The notes under the pieces are model-generated. The model saw only the letters and a program-made list of their open reading frames with translations. It did not search any database and had not been told where the DNA came from. The position numbers and the translations under genes are program-made. A DNA stretch of 62,858 bases, the filler included, from Reclinomonas americana ATCC 50394 (lineage: Eukaryota): assembly GCA_048213135.1 (NCBI GenBank). It is 43 parts of 43 records of this genome, joined end to end, with 100 filler letters (N's around TTAATTAATTAA, not from the genome) between each part and the next. Parts side by side here need not be neighbours in the genome. Positions count along the whole stretch, not along the records: positions 33,788 to 35,151 come from AFZH01025747.1; 42 more parts are not named here. One strand, given 5' to 3'. Below, one piece after another: positions 33,788-54,124 of the stretch; the stretch's first letter is position 1, and each line of letters starts with the position of its first letter.

Positions 33788-34082
33788 AGTGATTGCATCC
33801 GTAAATAACAAAGGTTTAGACTTTTGCAATAGTGAAGAGTTTACAGTTGATAAATTTGATAATGGAATGATTACTATCACGGACGGAGATAGATATATTG
33901 ACATTAAGTCAAAGGTGTTTACAAAGATGTTTCACCCTGCTTATTGCATAACCTGCCATCGTTCACAAGGCAGAACGTTTACATGTGATTATTCCATCGT
34001 TGAATGGGATTATATGGATGATATTTGCAAATATGTGGCATTGAGTCGCGCAAGATCATGTAAACAAATTTCAATCTTTTAA
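33788..34082 (+). CDS. SF1B (Pif1/RecD-like) helicase C-terminus, partial
   Basis: PAYCITCHRSQGRTF (motif V) and KYVALSRAR (motif VI). Confidence 0.85.
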
Positions 34083-34104
34083 ATTGTATTCATATATTAT
34101 TAAT

Positions 34105-35151
34105 ATGACTACTTTAGATAGTATATATGTAAAGTTCAATTATCCGGCCAGTGCAAAGCTTTATAAGTTGGCAAAGGCTGAAGGGCTAACCGTAACTATG
34201 AAAGAAGTGAAAGATTTCTTATTAAATAAAGAAGGTGCACAAATACATACTCGAAAGTTAAAGAAGGTAGAAAATCCTATTAGAACGGTAACTAAACAAA
34301 TGTCTTATCAAATGGATTTATTAGATATGACCAAGTTTAGCACCAAAAATAAAGGATTCAAATGGATTCTTATCGTGGTGGATATATTTGATAGGAAAGC
34401 TTGTGCAGATGCCTTGAAATCTAAATCACCAAATGATGTATTAGAAGGTATCAAGAAATGTTTTAATTATTTGGGCAAACCAAAGGATGTTACATCAGAT
34501 GATGGTGCTGAATGGAAAGGCGCAGTGAAAACATATTTAGAGAGTGAGAAAATAAGTCATAGGACTGCAGATGTTGGCGATCATAATGTATTAGGTATAA
34601 TTGATAGGTTTAGTAAAACATTAAAATCTATTATATATAAAAGGTTCTCTCACAATGATAATGTTGATTGGGTGCCAACATTAGATGAAACAATAAAGGC
34701 ATATAATGCGACGCCACATAGTTCATTAAATGATAGAAGTCCTAATGAAGCGGAAAAGTATTCATTTGACACGGCCATGTATCAGTATAGAAAAATACAA
34801 GAAATCGAGAAAAAGAATGAAAAGAAAAAAGATAAAATAAATGTTGGTGATAATGTTAGATATAAGTTAAAGAAGACAACATTTTCAAAAGGATATGAAC
34901 AACAATGGTCAAATACTATTCATAAAATAATTAGTAAGAATGGACAAAATTATGAATTAGATAATGGTATGTCATTAAGGGCACAAAGTTTATTGTTAGC
35001 TGGAAGTATGCCACAGCAAACACCAGTTATTAAACCTGTTGAAGTAAAGCCAAAGAAGGCGATAGTTCAAATAGATGAAGCAAAGAAACAATTACAAAGT
35101 GAAAGAAGGAAAAAGAAAGAAGATAGACCATTAACCCAGATTATTGAAGGT
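34105..35151 (+). CDS. Retroviral-like (rve) integrase of Polinton type, 3' partial
   Basis: YQMDLLDM, GFKWILIVVDIF, VTSDDGAEW, LGIIDRFSKTLK, YNATPHSSL, VGDNVR...FSKGYEQQWS; N-terminal KLYKLAK...VKDFL. Confidence 0.9.
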
Positions 35152-36712: not shown

Positions 36713-36757
36713 GCCTTCATGTACTACCCGTGGGCCGCCACGATCGGCGCTCGATGA
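36713..36757 (+). CDS. C-terminus of the upstream gene, probably the ABC peptide-binding protein
   Basis: AFMYYPWAATIGAR*; TGA overlaps the permease ATG (ATGA 36754-36757). Confidence 0.55.
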   Translation, partial: AFMYYPWAATIGAR

Positions 36758-37710
36758 GCAGCGCGCGACGCGTCGCAGGGAAGCTCGGCGGGCTGCTGCT
36801 GACGCTGTTCCTGGCGTCGCTGCTCGTCTTCTTCTCGCGGTTCCTGGTGCCGGGCGACCCGGTGAGCTTCCTGCTGCGCGGTCGCAAGCCGAGCGACGAG
36901 GCGGTGGCCGCGGTCACGGCGCAGTACGGTCTGGATCTTCCGCCGTGGGAGCAGTACCTCCGCTGGATCCTCGGTGTGCTGCAGGGGGACTTCGGCCGTT
37001 CGCTGCAGTACCGGCAGGATGTCACCCAGGTGATCGGCGATCGACTGCCGGCGACCCTGATGCTCGTCGCCATGGCCGGCGCGATCGTGCTCATCGCCGG
37101 GGTCGTGCTCGGCGCAGCCGCGGCGCTCAACCGGGGGAAGGCGGTCGATCGGTTCATCCTCATCGGACTCACCGTGCTCGGCGCCATCCCGTCGTTCGTC
37201 GGCGCGATCGTGCTCATCGCCGTGTTCTCCATCCAGCTCGGCTGGTTCCCCTCCTTCGGCTCCGGCGACGGGTTCTTCGACATGCTCTACCACCTGACCC
37301 TGCCCTCGCTCGCGTTGGCGCTCGTCTTCATCGTGCTGGTCGGGAAGGTGACCCGGTCGGCCATGGTCGATCAGCTGGGCCGTGAGCACGTCGAGGTCTC
37401 CACGAGTCGCGGCGTGCGCCGATCGACGGTCATCCGTCGTCACGTCCTGCGCAACGCGCTGGGCCCGATCCTCACCGTGAGCGGCGTGCTCGTGGCCGGA
37501 CTCATCGTCGCGAGCTCCATCGTCGAGGCGGCGTTCGGCCTCTCCGGCATCGGCTCGCTCCTGGTGCAGTCGGTCGACCGGCTGGACTTCCCGGTCGTGC
37601 AGGCCATCGTCCTCCTGGTGGTGCTCGCCTTCGTGGTGATGAACGCCCTGGTCGACATCCTCGAACCCTGGATCGATCCGCGCTCCGCAGCGGGAGCAGG
37701 TGCCCGATGA
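36754..37710 (+). CDS. dppB: Peptide/nickel ABC transporter permease (DppB/OppB family)
   Basis: VPGDP, YGLDLP..EQY..W...VLQGDFGRS, RLPATL, HLTLP, RHVLRNA and DFPVVQA; high-GC actinobacterial codons. Confidence 0.92.
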   Translation: MSSARRVAGKLGGLLLTLFLASLLVFFSRFLVPGDPVSFLLRGRKPSDEAVAAVTAQYGLDLPPWEQYLRWILGVLQGDFGRSLQYRQDVTQVIGDRLPATLMLVAMAGAIVLIAGVVLGAAAALNRGKAVDRFILIGLTVLGAIPSFVGAIVLIAVFSIQLGWFPSFGSGDGFFDMLYHLTLPSLALALVFIVLVGKVTRSAMVDQLGREHVEVSTSRGVRRSTVIRRHVLRNALGPILTVSGVLVAGLIVASSIVEAAFGLSGIGSLLVQSVDRLDFPVVQAIVLLVVLAFVVMNALVDILEPWIDPRSAAGAGAR

Positions 37711-38073
37711 CCTCTTCGACCCCCACCCTCGCGATCCGGCTGCTGCGCTCGCCGCGCCGGAAGCGGCCGCGATTCCTCTTCCTCGCGGCGATCGTCGTGC
37801 TCGCCGTCGTCACACTCGCCGCGATCTTCGCGCCGTTCGTCGCCCCGTACGATCCGGATGCCGTGGACTTCCTGTCCTTCCTGGCCCCACCGTCCGCCGC
37901 GCACTGGCTCGGCACCGACTCTCTCGGCCGGGATCTGCTCAGCCGCCTCATCTACGGCGGACGCACCGCCCTCATCGGACCGCTCCTGGTCGTCGTCTTC
38001 TCGACCGTGATCGGCATCCTGCTGGGGCTCTGGGCCGGCTGGCGCGGTGGCTGGATCGACGCCGCCCTGAGCC
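37707..38073 (+). CDS. dppC: Peptide ABC transporter permease (DppC/OppC family), partial
   Basis: APYDP, PPSAAHWLGTDSLGRDLLSRLIYGGR and GGWID; ATGA overlap with dppB. Confidence 0.92.
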
Positions 38074-39633: not shown

Positions 39634-40993
39634 TTGCAGTACAAACGAAGTCGGGTCGACTGACGATGCTATCACAGCAGAGAACTGCTTGTTGGCACCA
39701 GTCAACTCGTAATATGCGCCTTGTCCCCGATACTGCAGGCAAACTCGGTACAGTGCTCCACTGCCGATAGCTGGCAACTGGACGACCAGGTCAGCGCCGG
39801 ATAGCGCATTCATAGATGTCGCTAAACTTGGAGCGCTGTTGGCGATGTCCGCACAAACCGAGTTCTGGTCGGTCATCAACCGCAATCGTACTCGGTCTGT
39901 CGAATCCAGATTGCTGCCAGAGATCGTCAACACTAGTCCAGCTGCCAGAGGTGCAGTGGCGCCGAGAGGGCGAACGGTGGTGGCATAGACGAAACCGAGA
40001 GTGTTGGTGACTCCGGCAGTTAGCCATGTTGCTTCCGCTGCGCTCGTCCGAACACACACCGTTCGCGTGCCCGTGGCGCCGACTGCGTTCACCGTAATCA
40101 CGGCGGTCGAGTCCGACACGACGCTGATGGCTGTTACAGAAATTGCGTTGGTGTTGCCAGTGCACGATCCAGATACAATCTTTGCCTGCAACGTACTGCT
40201 GACAAACACAAAACCGTTTCCAGTCACAGTGACAGTGGCAGTAGAAGCCGTAGTGATGGCAGACGGACTGAACGAAGTCGCTCCAACAGCAGCCAGCGTC
40301 TGACCGCCGATGACACCAACTGCTGCCGCCGCCGATGAATTGTTGCCGGGGCGCAAGCACAGCCCAAAGTTACGGCCAGTTGTGTCCGACGCAGTGACGT
40401 TGGTGACTACTTGCGTATCATACACCTGCACTGTTGGTGTCGAAAAGACTAGCTGCGTCACCGGCGAACCAGCACACGTGTCTCCTTCCGCGACTGCGTA
40501 AAATCTGTCTGCAGCGCTGAGACCGCTTCCGGTTACTGTGAGTACCGCAGTCGTCGAAGTCGCTTGGAATGCGCTTGGTGCTGCGTTGGTGGCTGATACA
40601 ACTGAGAACACGTTCGCAGACGAGTTGGCCAGGGGATAGAACGACCCTGAGCCAGCGTACTGGATACACACAAGATACCGTCTTCCACTTGTGATCGCAA
40701 CAGGGATCTGAACTGTCGATTGGCTTCCAGTGGACGCAACAGTGGAACATGTGATAGAAGCAACACCGTTGGGATTGGCACACGCCAGACTGCTGTTGGC
40801 GTCCAACGGTACCAACTTCACAACATCAGCTGCCGACAGTTGCTGGCCAGAGAGTGTCAATCTCGTGAATGCTGGAGTCGACAAAGGAAGTCCGGTAGGC
40901 GACACTGACTGAGCCCCGACAATTGACAAACCCTGCGGGTTTCCAACAACCAACCATGTGGTTTCCATGCTAGTGGCTCTACCACACACCGTG
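39634..40993 (-). CDS. Giant repetitive surface protein with ~105-aa Cys-paired Ig/IPT-like domains, copy A, partial
   Basis: Intronless open frame; modules (S/A)P....LT(V/I)(T/S)G..L...D....C...(Y/F).(V/L)C; N-glycosylation sequons. Confidence 0.75.
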
Positions 40994-42553: not shown

Positions 42554-43913
42554 CTGCAGTACAAACGAAGTCGGGTCGACTGACGATGCTATCACAGCAG
42601 AGAACTGCTTGTTGGCACCAGTCAACTCGTAATATGCGCCTTGTCCCCGATACTGCAGGCAAACTCGGTACAGTGCTCCACTGCCGATAGCTGGCAACTG
42701 GACGACCAGGTCAGCGCCGGATAGCGCATTCATAGATGTCGCTAAACTTGGAGCGCTGTTGGCGATGTCCGCACAAACCGAGTTCTGATCGGTCATCAAC
42801 CGCAATCGTACTCGGTCTGTCGAATCCAGATTGCTGCCAGAGATCGTCAACACTAGGCCTGCTGCCAGAGGTGCAGTGGCGCCGAGAGGGCGCACGGTGG
42901 TGGCATAGACGAAACCGAGAGTGTTGGTGACTCCGGCAGTGAGCCATGTTGCTTCCGCTGCGCTCGTCCGAACACACACCGTTCGCGTGCCCGTGGCGCC
43001 GACAGCGTTCACCGTAATTACAGCGGTCGAGTCCGACACGACGCTGATGGCTGTTACAGAAATTGCGTTGGTGTTGCCAGTGCACGATCCAGATACAATC
43101 TTTGCCTGCAACGTACTGCTGACAAACACAAATCCGTTTCCAGTCACAGTGACAGTGGCAGTAGTAGCCGTAGTGATGGCAGACGGACTGAACGAAGTCG
43201 CTCCAACAGCAGCCAGCGTCTGACCGCCGATGACACCAACTGCTGCCGCCGCCGACGAATTGTTGCCGGGGCGCAAGCACAGCCCAAAGTTACGGCCAGT
43301 TGTGTCCGACGCAGTGACGTTGGTGATTACTTGCGTATCGTACACCTGCACTGTTGGTGTCGAAAAAACTAGCTGCGTCACCGGCGAACCAGCACACGTG
43401 TCTCCGTCTGCGACTGCGTAAAATCTGTCTGCAGCGCTGAGACCGCTTCCGGTTACTGTTAGTACCGCTGTCGTCGAGGTCGCTTGGAATGCGCTTGGTG
43501 CTGCGTTGGTGGCTGACACAACTGAGAACACGTTCGCAGACGAGTTGGCCAGAGGATAGAACGACCCTGAGCCAGCGTACTGGATACACACAAGATACCG
43601 TCGTCCACTTGTGATCGCAACAGGGATCTGAACTGTCGATTGGCTTCCAGTGGACGCAACAGTGGAACAAGTGATTGAAGCAACACCGTTGGGATTGGCA
43701 CACGCCAGACTGCTGTTGGCGTCCAACGGCACCAACTTCACAACATCAGCTGCCGACAGTTGCTGGCCAGAGAGTGTCAATCTCGTGAATGCTGGAGTCG
43801 ACACAGGAAGTCCGGTGGGCGACACTGACTGAGCCCCGACAATTGACAAACCCTGCGGATTTCCAACAACCAACCAAGTGGTTTCCGTGCTTGTGGCTCT
43901 ACCACACACCGTT
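42554..43913 (-). CDS. Giant repetitive surface protein, copy B (near-identical to 39634-40993)
   Basis: Same length and boundaries; about 33 substitutions by manual comparison, 5 of them non-synonymous. Confidence 0.75.
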
Positions 43914-52768: not shown

Positions 52769-53103
52769 ACATCGCCGGCCAGGTCGCCTTCCCGGAGATC
52801 GACGTGCGTCAGCGTCTGACCGTGTCGACCGGGTACGGGGTCGCCGAGCTGATGGTCCACGGTGCAGTCGACCTGGTGGGCAAGACCCTGGGTGAAGCGG
52901 GCCTCTGGGAGCGCGACATCACGGTTCTGACGCTGCACCGGGGTGTCAGCGTGATCCCGAACCCGCGCAAGCACGTCGTGCTCGAAGCCGACGACCGGCT
53001 CTTCTGCTTCGGCAAGCTCGACGAGATGCGCTCCATGGTCCCCGAGCGGCGCCGTCGCCGCGCCAAGGTGCGTCGCCTGCCGCGCCAACCGCTCTCAGAA
53101 TGA
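52769..53103 (+). CDS. C-terminal TrkA_C/RCK_C domain, probably of an actinobacterial RimK-family ligase, partial
   Basis: FPEIDVRQRLTVSTGYGVAEL...LVGKTLGEAGL..RDITVLTLHRG..VIPNP....VLEADDRL..FG. Confidence 0.7.
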
Positions 53104-53107
53104 ACGA

Positions 53108-53145
53108 AAGCGCGGCCGCTCGTCAGGACGAGGGCGGCCGCGCTT
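53108..53145. terminator. Probable bidirectional intrinsic terminator between convergent genes
   Basis: Inverted repeat AAGCGCGGCCGC(53108-53119)...GCGGCCGCGCTT(53134-53145), with additional inner pairing. Confidence 0.7.
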
Positions 53146-53166
53146 CTCGAGGCGGATGTCGCGGGA

Positions 53167-53879
53167 TCAGCGCGGTCGCTGAGCGCGGACCTTCGTGGGG
53201 TCGATGCCCTTCGGGATCGGCAGCGAGGACAGCGACTGCGACACGGAGTCGATGCGCCGGATGACCGCGGCCATGGTCGTCTTGTCGATCGCCTTGGGGA
53301 GCTTCTTGATGGTCTTCGAGAGATCGGCGATCGCGACCTCGTCTTCTCCGTGGCCGACGTACAGGACCGTGACGGGGACGCCGTGCGCGACGCGCTGCGC
53401 CTTGCTGCGCTCCTCGTTGACGAGACGGGTCAATCGTCCGCGAGCTCCTTCGCCGACGACGACGATGCCTCCGCGGCCCACGGTGCGGTAGACCGCCTCC
53501 TGTGTCTTGGGGTTGATCCCGACAGGGGTCTCCGAGGCCTGCCAGCTGCGGCCGAGGCTGGTGCTGAGCACGTGGCCGGTCGCACCGGGCATGCCGTCGA
53601 TCTTCGTGTACATCGCCGACGTCGACAGCCGCGTCATCAGGAAGAGCGCGCCGAGCACGCCGAGCATCAGACCGGTGATACCCCAGAGCACGAGCGTCCA
53701 GATCTGGAACGGCGGGATCAGGTAGCCGGCGACGAGACCGAGGAGCACGCCGATGAGGAGGATCCCCCACTGGAGCCACGGGGAGCCACGGGGTAGGCCT
53801 CACGAGTGAACCGGAAGAGGGACTTGATCTGGGAGAAGAACCCAGGACGCTTCTCGGGTTCGGGAGCACGCTTTGCCAT
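53167..53879 (-). CDS. DUF4191 membrane protein with an apparent +2 frameshift near 53780-53795
   Basis: MAKRAPEPEKRPGFFSQIKSLFRFTREAYP then IDGMPGATGHVL, AVYRTVGRGGIVVVGEG and LPIPKGIDP; span 713 = 711+2; two C4 runs where C3 would give YPWLPWLQ. Confidence 0.85.
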
Positions 53880-53886
53880 GAGGACC

Positions 53887-53892
53887 AGCCTA
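53887..53892 (-). promoter_or_regulatory. -10 box of a probable leaderless promoter for the DUF4191 gene
   Basis: TAGGCT lies 7 nt before the ATG with no Shine-Dalgarno, a typical actinobacterial leaderless layout. Confidence 0.5.
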
Positions 53893-54042
53893 CCCAGTTC
53901 GCGGATGCCGTGATGTCGAGTTCGCGCCCAGCGGAGCGCCAACCGACCGGACTCTTCCTCCACATTGGCCGGGATCGCGCCATTCCATCCACATCGATGC
54001 CGATCAGTCCCTCGCGGGGTCGCTGTCGGCTGTGATGGGGAC

Positions 54043-54124
54043 ATGGCAGATGTCGAGATCGAAGACCGGGGCACCGCGCTCCTCCCGGGAGCTCATCGTG
54101 TGGTCCGCGTTCTCGATCCGACAG
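54043..54124 (+). CDS. Actinobacterial hypothetical protein start, partial
   Basis: MADVEIEDRGTALLPGAHRVVRVLDPT, running off the contig. Confidence 0.4.

What the first reader, a model, noticed from the sequence alone, without database searches (positions are those of the whole stretch)
33788..35151. AT-rich Polinton-like virus fragment: SF1 helicase next to an integrase with a D-D-D triad
Seen: an intronless AT-rich contig in which a Pif1/RecD-like helicase ends 22 nt before an rve integrase. The catalytic positions read QMD, TSD and GIID-R, so Asp replaces the Glu of the GxxER motif, with 34 residues between the 2nd and 3rd. The frames are intact. Established: Polintons, PLVs and mavirus-like virophages integrate into protist genomes as AT-rich islands, and mavirus protects Cafeteria populations from CroV; mavirus uses an SF3 helicase. 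Inference: a possibly undescribed endogenous or co-cultured PLV of this flagellate with a DDD-variant integrase.
Basis: partly seen in the sequence, partly recalled or inferred. Interest (0 to 1): 0.75.

Follow-up and report, generated by a model that had tools for sequence, protein, structure and literature searches.

The report
Protist virus with unusual integrase site
This AT-rich scrap is part of a small DNA virus inserted in a single-celled eukaryote's genome, and its integration enzyme belongs to a widespread lineage in which the usual third catalytic glutamate is replaced by aspartate, or sometimes asparagine.

Summary
The 1,364-nt contig (GC 0.32) carries a helicase C-terminus, a 22-nt spacer and an rve integrase with D71-D132-D167 (34-residue spacing). 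Both genes are cut by the contig ends.

The helicase is the tail of a Tlr1-like pPolB-HNH-SF1 fusion. Two further 97-98% copies in the same genome sit beside an A32 ATPase, a probable capsid/penton/fibre module and host DNA; one neighbouring contig shows a sharp terminal-repeat/host junction. So this is an endogenous polinton-like virus of roughly 18 kb, an architecture already published.

The Asp is a lineage trait, not decay. Of 150 distant relatives, 129 have D, 12 N and 9 E, while a canonical control set was 34 of 34 E. Copies are under purifying selection (26 synonymous versus 6 replacement changes). A nearly invariant His lies seven residues before the Asp. The D-type enzyme also occurs in a virophage. 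My literature searches found no description of this D/N lineage. Catalytic activity and target-site duplications were not shown.

The scan had already noted the capsid module, a helicase fragment and a two-integrase island on other DNA of this genome. Verdict: new variant of a known kind.

The parts
33788..35151 (.). Whole AT-rich contig (G000:C10280), an internal piece of a polinton-like virus
   Evidence: GC 0.317, bounded by assembly linkers; 97.2% to G000:C7882 over 1,190 nt and 97.8% to G000:C518 over 1,085 nt
33789..34082 (+). Last 97 codons of a pPolB-HNH-SF1 (Tlr1-like) polymerase-helicase; SF1 motifs TCHRSQG and YVALSRA
   Evidence: Matches the C-terminal 97 aa of 1,216-1,341-aa proteins in related loci (E down to 1e-22; alignment), which carry HNH and PIF1/AAA_19 domains
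34067..34079 (+). Empty insertion site: in copy G000:C518 a 178-aa GIY-YIG endonuclease gene is inserted here, flanked by an imperfect repeat of this 13-nt stretch
   Evidence: BLAST break at these bases, flanks, GIY-YIG E 3.8e-6
34083..34104 (+). 22-nt AT-rich spacer between helicase stop and integrase start
   Evidence: Sequence; in 45 related loci the spacer runs from -14 to 323 nt, median 22
34105..35151 (+). rve-family integrase, 349 of about 358 codons: three-helix N-terminal domain, RNase H-like core, beta-rich C-terminal domain; no chromodomain
   Evidence: Pfam rve; AlphaFold2 mean pLDDT 82; Foldseek best hits PFV/MMTV/RSV intasomes, E about 1e-14, and a MELD virus integrase, E 1.4e-17
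34315..34317 (+). Asp71, first catalytic residue (QMD)
   Evidence: D in 138 of 141 D/N-type relatives, other 3 gaps
34498..34500 (+). Asp132, second catalytic residue (TSD)
   Evidence: D in 139 of 141 D/N-type relatives
34582..34584 (+). His160, nearly invariant, seven residues before the third position
   Evidence: H in 127 of 129 D-type and 10 of 12 N-type proteins; 4 of 34 in the canonical E control
34603..34605 (+). Asp167 at the position of the canonical catalytic Glu
   Evidence: Aligned to the Glu of GLVER; D 129, N 12, E 9 among 150 relatives

Best explanation
The contig is an internal piece of one copy of an endogenous polinton-like virus (PLV) of about 17-18 kb. Inferred gene order: left terminal inverted repeat (TIR), small genes, fibre, major capsid protein, PLA2-like protein, A32 ATPase, penton, three unknown genes, pPolB-HNH-SF1 polymerase-helicase, integrase, right TIR. 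The fusion protein most likely copies the linear genome by protein priming from the TIR ends (predicted for this family in PMC11161782; inferred). The integrase most likely is a working two-metal strand-transfer enzyme that joins the genome ends (5'-ACAC...GTGT-3') to host DNA (inferred). It belongs to a large lineage whose catalytic helix reads H-x-x-L-G-x-x-D/N where retroviral integrases read P-x-x-Q/N-G-x-x-E. D71 and D132 probably bind the metals as usual, while the second metal site is remodelled so that a shorter Asp suffices and Asn is sometimes tolerated. Shown: sequence, fold, lineage-wide D/N, purifying selection, module linkage in relatives, one right-end and one left-end host junction. 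Inferred: the capsid fold, that this enzyme made the insertions, and the metal geometry.
For: Three genomic copies keep D-D-D. C10280 vs C7882 differ by 26 synonymous and 6 replacement codons over about 201 and 846 sites, ratio about 0.055. Third position: D 23, N 1, E 1 of 25; D 129, N 12, E 9 of the best 150 of 8,935 hits; control 34 of 34 E. A tree built without the motif columns splits 26 E-type rows from all 45 D/N rows plus 2 long-branch E rows, SH-aLRT 99. A helicase-family ORF lies directly upstream in 45 of 53 informative loci. C7879-C7883 run collinearly: fibre, MCP candidate, PLA2-like, A32 (E 1.9e-11), penton candidate, then helicase end plus integrase, then TIR and host. C519, next to C518, repeats that order and shares 88.6% over 1,145 nt upstream of the helicase. 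The C7883 junction is sharp against empty sites C187 and C579. C8736 shows the mirror-image left end. P0003 (96%) and P0170 (92%) each come from one 17,812-nt contig.
Against: No activity data. No target-site duplication could be read, because no insertion has both junctions assembled; only 2 termini were found in the genome. The window contig itself touches neither host DNA nor capsid genes. Linkage of the other copies rests on contig-number adjacency, a 205-N scaffold gap in C518, and equal contig length in Logan. The MCP has no Pfam hit, no PDB hit, only a weak profile match (probability 9.5), a failed fold (pLDDT 31) and an Atlas hit with a below-threshold recognition score. Three E-type integrases in sibling elements of the same genome (C3368, C7427, C519) could act in trans. 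The C8736 left end belongs to a related element whose integrase is unknown. The C518 copy is one base shorter near codon 240. Twelve N variants are awkward for a strict three-carboxylate enzyme.
Confidence: 0.72

Rival explanations
1. Same virus, but the D/N protein is no longer a strand-transfer enzyme. It is kept for binding or protecting genome ends, and integration is done in trans by E-type integrases of co-resident elements.
For: Asn at the third position in 12 of 150 full-length relatives, needing 2 to 7 origins, and kept in two related 23-kb contigs (P0012, P0171). E-type integrases are present in the same genome.
Against: D71 and D132 are essentially invariant and never Asn, which is unexpected for a dead active site. 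Many D-type loci carry no second integrase in the DNA held. Strong purifying selection.
Confidence: 0.12
2. The contig comes from a free or co-cultured virus, or from another AT-rich organism, rather than from an insertion in this protist.
For: The contig has no host junction, and the assembly holds bacterial-looking contigs (GC 0.67-0.69 at window 36713-38073 and 52769-54124). A 17,812-nt near-identical element exists in a public assembly.
Against: A 97% copy (C7882) is followed by a contig with a base-sharp TIR/host junction whose empty sites exist elsewhere in the genome. A 98% copy is scaffolded to GC-rich host DNA.
Confidence: 0.08
3. A capsid-less transpoviron-like or Ginger-like replication-integration module that only happens to sit near PLV capsid genes.
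For: The helicase-integrase pair moves between capsid types: a virophage MCP in L026, unlike MCP candidates in L043, L062 and L093, and an intact pPolB in place of the helicase in L025. Such mobile modules are discussed in 10.64898/2026.10.13.758929 (passages).
Against: Two contig runs give the same capsid-to-integrase order, and the integrase and MCP homologs share a 17,812-nt contig length.
Confidence: 0.06
4. The Asp is a local mutation or sequencing error in a decaying copy.
For: One sister copy has a frameshift.
Against: D is in all three copies and in 129 of 150 distant relatives, with both GAT and GAC codons in use (58 and 8).
Confidence: 0.01

Closest known systems
Tlr1 element of Tetrahymena and PLVs with pPolB-S1H (Tlr1-like helicase) fusions (PMC5499653; PMC11161782)
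   Same: Large polymerase-SF1 helicase fusion, rve integrase, A32 ATPase, capsid module without a detected protease, linear genome with TIRs, homing endonucleases at the helicase gene
   Different: Here HNH lies N-terminal to the polymerase palm, and GIY-YIG is an optional free-standing insertion at the helicase stop. The integrase triad is D-D-D/N, which the passages I read do not mention.
Rhodomonas/Cryptomonas PLVs with an HNH-fused helicase immediately upstream of rve-INT (PMC12220804, section 12)
   Same: Same gene pair, same order, endogenous in a protist, TIR-bounded
   Different: The paper gives no active-site analysis ('DDE' occurs 0 times). Whether its integrases are D-type was not checked, and its supplements were not read.
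Polinton/Maverick and mavirus/EMALE rve integrases (PMC8547959)
   Same: rve fold, integration as low-GC TIR-flanked islands; the mavirus integrase is a structural match (E 2.8e-14, 16% identity)
   Different: Mavirus-type elements have a virophage MCP, protease and SF3 helicase, and often a chromodomain. This element's MCP candidate has no virophage-MCP Pfam hit.
Retroviral integrases (PFV, MMTV, STLV)
   Same: Three-domain layout and RNase H-like core; first two Asp in register
   Different: Third residue Asp or Asn instead of Glu; His and Leu where the aligned STLV sequence has Pro and Ser; no HHCC zinc motif seen in the N-terminal domain
mariner DD34D transposases (recalled, no call)
   Same: Precedent for an active D-D-(34)-D triad in an RNase H-fold transposase
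   Different: A separate superfamily (Tc1/mariner); the resemblance is convergent and was not tested here

Membership tests
Polinton-like viruses (PLV) | A32-type packaging ATPase | tested here: met
   Pox_A32 E 1.9e-11 in C7881, the contig numbered next to integrase copy C7882; also in C519
Polinton-like viruses (PLV) | [quoted passage not shown] | tested here: inconclusive
   555-aa candidate: Atlas features 0.98 to Preplasmiviricota clusters, some with Capsid_N (24%) or Sputnik_MCP (29%), but recognition below threshold; no Pfam or PDB hit; single-sequence fold failed
Polinton-like viruses (PLV) | Single jelly-roll penton | tested here: inconclusive
   253-aa candidate: Atlas 0.98 to viral and DUF5901 clusters; syntenic proteins hit DUF5901; fold not tested
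Polinton-like viruses (PLV) | Terminal inverted repeats and 14-40 kb size | tested here: met
   Right end at C7883:1-299 and left end at C8736:206-491 are 80% alike and inverted, though from two different copies; 10.7 kb is assembled in C7879-C7883 and the near-identical Logan contig is 17,812 nt
Polinton-like viruses (PLV) | No capsid maturation protease | tested here: inconclusive
   PF00770 found nothing in the genome, but the control genomes did not ring either; the assembly is gapped
Polinton-like viruses (PLV) | Target-site duplication on rve-mediated insertion | not testable with these tools
   No insertion has both junctions assembled
Tlr1-like / pPolB-S1H elements | pPolB palm fused to a C-terminal SF1 helicase, 1,000-1,400 aa | tested here: met
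   The window fragment is the C-end of 1,216-1,341-aa relatives. Own-genome piece C10489 carries HNH, polymerase-like motifs and Walker A; its link to this copy is inferred.
Tlr1-like / pPolB-S1H elements | rve integrase | tested here: met
   Pfam rve above cut-off; intasome fold
Polintons/Mavericks in the strict sense | Stand-alone pPolB with exonuclease | tested here: not met
   The gene upstream is the helicase fusion. A stand-alone pPolB occurs in sibling C3368 (E-type integrase) and in one D-type locus, L025.
Mavirus-like virophages | Virophage-type MCP | tested here: not met
   The linked MCP candidate has no PF21915/PF22031 hit, whereas the L026 MCP scores E 3.5e-69 in the same library
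Mavirus-like virophages | SF3 helicase plus pPolB | tested here: not met
   The helicase is SF1
Canonical D,D(35)E retroviral-type integrases | RNase H-like core with two Asp in register | tested here: met
Canonical D,D(35)E retroviral-type integrases | Glu as third catalytic residue | tested here: not met
   Asp167; lineage-wide D/N
Canonical D,D(35)E retroviral-type integrases | Metal-dependent 3'-processing and strand transfer | not testable with these tools
   Needs biochemistry
Ginger / IS481-like / LTR retroelement integrases | Phylogenetic placement among these integrases, without capsid genes | not tested
   No named Ginger or IS481 sequences were in my trees; the linked packaging and capsid-like genes argue against it

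The most novel reading that the evidence does not exclude
A widespread branch of retroviral-type integrases, shared by PLVs and at least one virophage, has rebuilt its second metal site. The nearly invariant His160 (or the neighbouring Asp159) helps hold the metal or the viral DNA end, making the third carboxylate dispensable, so that D-D-D and D-D-N enzymes both integrate whole viral genomes.
Probability: 0.25. Interest if true: 0.75.

Novelty: new variant of a known kind. Interest (0 to 1): 0.5.

Why it matters
The third Glu of retroviral-type integrases is regarded as essential (recalled), and PLV and virophage integrases are routinely labelled 'DDE' without inspection. A lineage with at least 141 clusters at 50% identity that uses Asp, and repeatedly Asn, is a natural experiment on two-metal catalysis and is easy to test in vitro. 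It also means motif-based annotation may wrongly call many endogenous protist viruses integration-dead, and the motif gives a marker for following the pPolB-S1H plus integrase module as it moves between PLVs and virophages. The virus itself is a new member of a known architecture.

Tried and rejected
Single-sequence AlphaFold2 of the MCP candidate failed (pLDDT 31), so no fold search was run on it. Pfam, PDB-sequence and hhalign tests of the MCP were blank or weak, and its homolog search returned one protein. No sequencing run was listed for the contig, so reads, coverage and expression were not examined. The metagenome and IMG/VR scans used patterns containing IDRF, so their D counts are circular; I used them only for gene context, and they include near-duplicate contigs. 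Three IMG/VR loci (L027-L029) were distant E-type integrases of large-virus contigs and were left out of the context count. Genome searches for virophage MCP and adenain protease found nothing, but their controls were also silent. phmmer aligned D74 with the first catalytic Asp of STLV integrase; I rejected this because Q-x-D71 is the conserved rve motif and D74 is only 106 of 129 conserved. Compensation of Asn167 by an acid at 159 was suggestive only (12 of 12 vs 47 of 65, p 0.058). Termini could not be defined in metagenomic relatives. The left flank of the C7879-C7883 insertion was not found at the end of C7878. The FastTree tree placed E-type rows less cleanly (5 changes) than the IQ-TREE subset (2 changes). 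Rfam found nothing in the window. Searches for experimental precedents (E152D, IS1595 DDN, DD34D-to-E swaps) returned 0 papers, so those points stay recalled. The host lineage was not determined.

Full report
**1. Observation.** The window is a string of 43 unrelated contigs of about 1.36 kb joined by artificial linkers, so the neighbours of the finding say nothing about it. The finding is one whole contig, G000:C10280, with GC 0.317 against 0.51-0.69 for the other 42. It holds the last 97 codons of an SF1 helicase (33789-34082), a 22-nt spacer, and an rve integrase frame from 34105 to the contig end. The triad is D71, D132, D167, with 34 residues between the last two. D167 aligns to the Glu of GLVER in a solved deltaretroviral integrase. 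AlphaFold2 gives a confident model (mean pLDDT 82) whose best structural matches are PFV, MMTV and RSV intasomes and a MELD virus integrase.

**2. The helicase.** The 97-aa piece matches the C-terminus of 1,216-1,341-aa proteins in related loci, which carry HNH and SF1 domains and polymerase-like motifs between them. A separate AT-rich contig of the same genome, C10489, holds the middle of such a gene, with HNH, the motifs DVNKCRRN, KLMINAFIG and HINTDC, and a Walker A; that it belongs to this copy is inferred. This is the Tlr1-like helicase of PMC5499653 (parts 1-3 of 5 read), which PMC11161782 (passages) renames pPolB-S1H and predicts to be an active polymerase. Of 67 related loci, 53 hold at least 250 nt upstream of the integrase; 45 of these have the helicase directly upstream on the same strand and 49 have it somewhere. 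These loci include near-duplicates. PMC12220804 (sections 11 and 12 and passages) already reports an HNH-fused helicase immediately upstream of rve-INT in cryptophyte PLVs, so the gene pair is known.

**3. The element in this genome.** Two further copies exist, C7882 (97.2%) and C518 (97.8%). Contig numbers in G000 appear to follow physical order: AT-rich runs sit between GC-rich host contigs and genes continue across them. C7879-C7881 carry small genes, a fibre-like gene, a 555-aa MCP candidate, a PLA2-like protein, an A32 ATPase (E 1.9e-11), a penton candidate and three unknown genes. C7882 follows with the helicase end and integrase. C7883 opens with about 300 nt of AT-rich sequence that switches within a base or two into a host repeat whose empty form occurs in C187 and C579. 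C8736 shows the mirror image: a host tandem repeat, then an 80%-alike terminus, then homologs of the left-hand genes. The ends read 5'-ACACATATATA and TATATATGTGT-3'. Only these two termini were found, so no target-site duplication can be read. In C518 the element is scaffolded to host DNA across a 205-N gap, and C519 continues with the front of the helicase and the same gene order, 88.6% alike over 1,145 nt. Independently, a 96%-identical integrase and a 92%-identical MCP each come from a single Logan contig of 17,812 nt; I infer it is the same contig. The weak point is the MCP: the Atlas places it with Preplasmiviricota capsid-like clusters, but at low recognition, and Pfam, PDB, hhalign and folding gave no firm support. 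The window contig has no link of its own to host or capsid; it is a third variant of the family.

**4. The third catalytic position.** Among 25 homologs it is D 23, N 1, E 1. Among the best 150 of 8,935 hits in a library clustered at 50% identity it is D 129, N 12, E 9; ranking against a D query favours D slightly. A control search with a canonical relative gave E in 34 of 34, with no D and no Q, and it carries the opposite bias. In the 141 D/N proteins the first two Asp never become Asn. His160 is kept in 127 of 129 D-type proteins and Leu163 in 124 of 129, against 4 and 1 of 34 in the control. On a 73-row tree (26 D-type rows drawn at random, all 12 N rows, motif columns 158-171 removed), 26 E rows separate from all 45 D/N rows plus two long-branch E rows from this genome, SH-aLRT 99; N needs 2 to 7 origins. 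A larger FastTree tree was less clean (5 changes). N is retained in two related proteins from 23-kb contigs. Between C10280 and C7882 there are 26 synonymous and 6 replacement codon differences, a ratio per site of about 0.055. The D-type enzyme also sits in a virophage with Sputnik-type MCP and penton (L026) and beside an intact pPolB (L025), so the module moves between capsid types.

**5. How it most likely works.** A linear TIR-ended genome is copied by the pPolB-S1H protein (literature prediction), packaged by the A32 ATPase into a jelly-roll capsid (inferred), and inserted by the integrase (inferred from purifying selection, invariant D71/D132, its place next to the right TIR, and real junctions). 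I put about 0.72 on an active D-type integrase in an endogenous PLV. The simplest chemistry is that Asp167 replaces Glu at the second metal, as in mariner DD34D enzymes (recalled). The repeated Asn and the fixed His suggest a remodelled site; that His or Asp159 helps bind the metal is a guess at about 0.25 (the Asp159 test gave p 0.058). The main rival is a catalytically dead end-binding protein complemented by the three E-type integrases of sibling elements.

**6. Novelty.** The virus is a new member of the Tlr1-like/pPolB-S1H PLVs. It fails membership of strict Polintons and of mavirus-like virophages. I found no description of the D/N lineage. Searches: 'DDD + integrase + polinton' gave 7 papers and 'virophage + integrase + catalytic triad' gave 8, 7 listed, both seen as listings only and none on this topic by title or abstract start; 'DD35D/DD34D/retroviral integrase/maverick' gave 0. 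'DDE' occurs 0 times in PMC7805220, PMC12220804, PMC4642659 and PMC10120064 (passages). The preprint 10.64898/2026.10.13.758929 (passages) calls these enzymes DDE. PMC8547959 (passages) was used for EMALE features. Most subscription papers are not in the library, and I read no supplements; alignments there could already show the Asp.

**7. Earlier notes of this scan** describe a capsid module, a helicase fragment and a two-integrase island in this genome. One pointed me to the 2024 re-examination of the fusion protein, which I then read. Look-ups by sequence and by words for the D-type triad found nothing.

**Verdict.** Real, correctly read and endogenous. Known virus architecture, with an apparently undescribed and easily testable active-site variant. 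Interest 0.5.

Noticed in passing
G000:C518 (L013:9204-9740, minus strand): A 178-aa GIY-YIG gene (weak AP2 match at its C-end) is inserted exactly at the helicase stop, flanked by an imperfect 12-13-nt repeat; the 93 nt of helicase next to it are only 85% alike to the window copy while the integrase side is 98%, as expected of a homing endonuclease with a co-converted tract.
   Followed up: partly
G000:C518 (L013:8433-9167, minus strand): This integrase copy is one base shorter in an A-rich run near codon 240 and ends at 244 aa; decay or assembly error was not distinguished.
   Followed up: partly
G000:C3366-C3368 (L118, L111, L014), C7423-C7427 (L133, L123, L117, L103, L015), C519 end (L016): Sibling PLV-like elements share fibre and capsid-module genes but pair E-type integrases with other replicases: stand-alone pPolB (C3368) and a DUF5906/SF3-like helicase (C7427). 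The C7427 and C519 E-type integrases fall inside the D/N branch on long branches, possibly reversions.
   Followed up: partly
G000:C519 (L016:3864-5542 and 6651-8428): A 1.7-kb inverted duplication (87-89%) of a helicase-front-like gene and a 158-162-aa gene; C519 also holds two MCP candidates in opposite orientation, so it may be two joined elements or a mis-scaffold.
   Followed up: no
L026/L090:1620-7869: A virophage (Sputnik-type MCP E 3.5e-69, penton E 1.7e-31) carries the SF1 helicase plus D-type integrase module; its integrase is sister to that of pPolB-bearing L025.
   Followed up: partly
L040:3513-7346 and L083:9231-10049: D-type elements in metagenomes abut retroelement-like genes (RVT_1 E 2.7e-19 in L040; a copia-like frame by eye in L083), suggesting endogenous copies in other hosts.
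   Followed up: no
L069:1846-2388 and homologs in 7 loci: A conserved two-transmembrane SLATT-like protein (SLATT_5 E 0.0015, below cut-off) is encoded just downstream of the integrase in one subgroup.
   Followed up: no
G000:C7423-C7424 (L133, L123): A leucine-rich-repeat-like gene (by eye) lies near the left end of a sibling PLV.
   Followed up: no
window 39634-40993 and 42554-43913: Two 1,360-nt contigs share nearly the same first and last 25 bases, suggesting variants of one repeat unit; no Rfam match.
   Followed up: partly
window 36713-38073 and 52769-54124: GC 0.67-0.69 contigs that look bacterial (the first reads like an ABC-transporter permease operon); probable contaminants of the assembly.
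   Followed up: no
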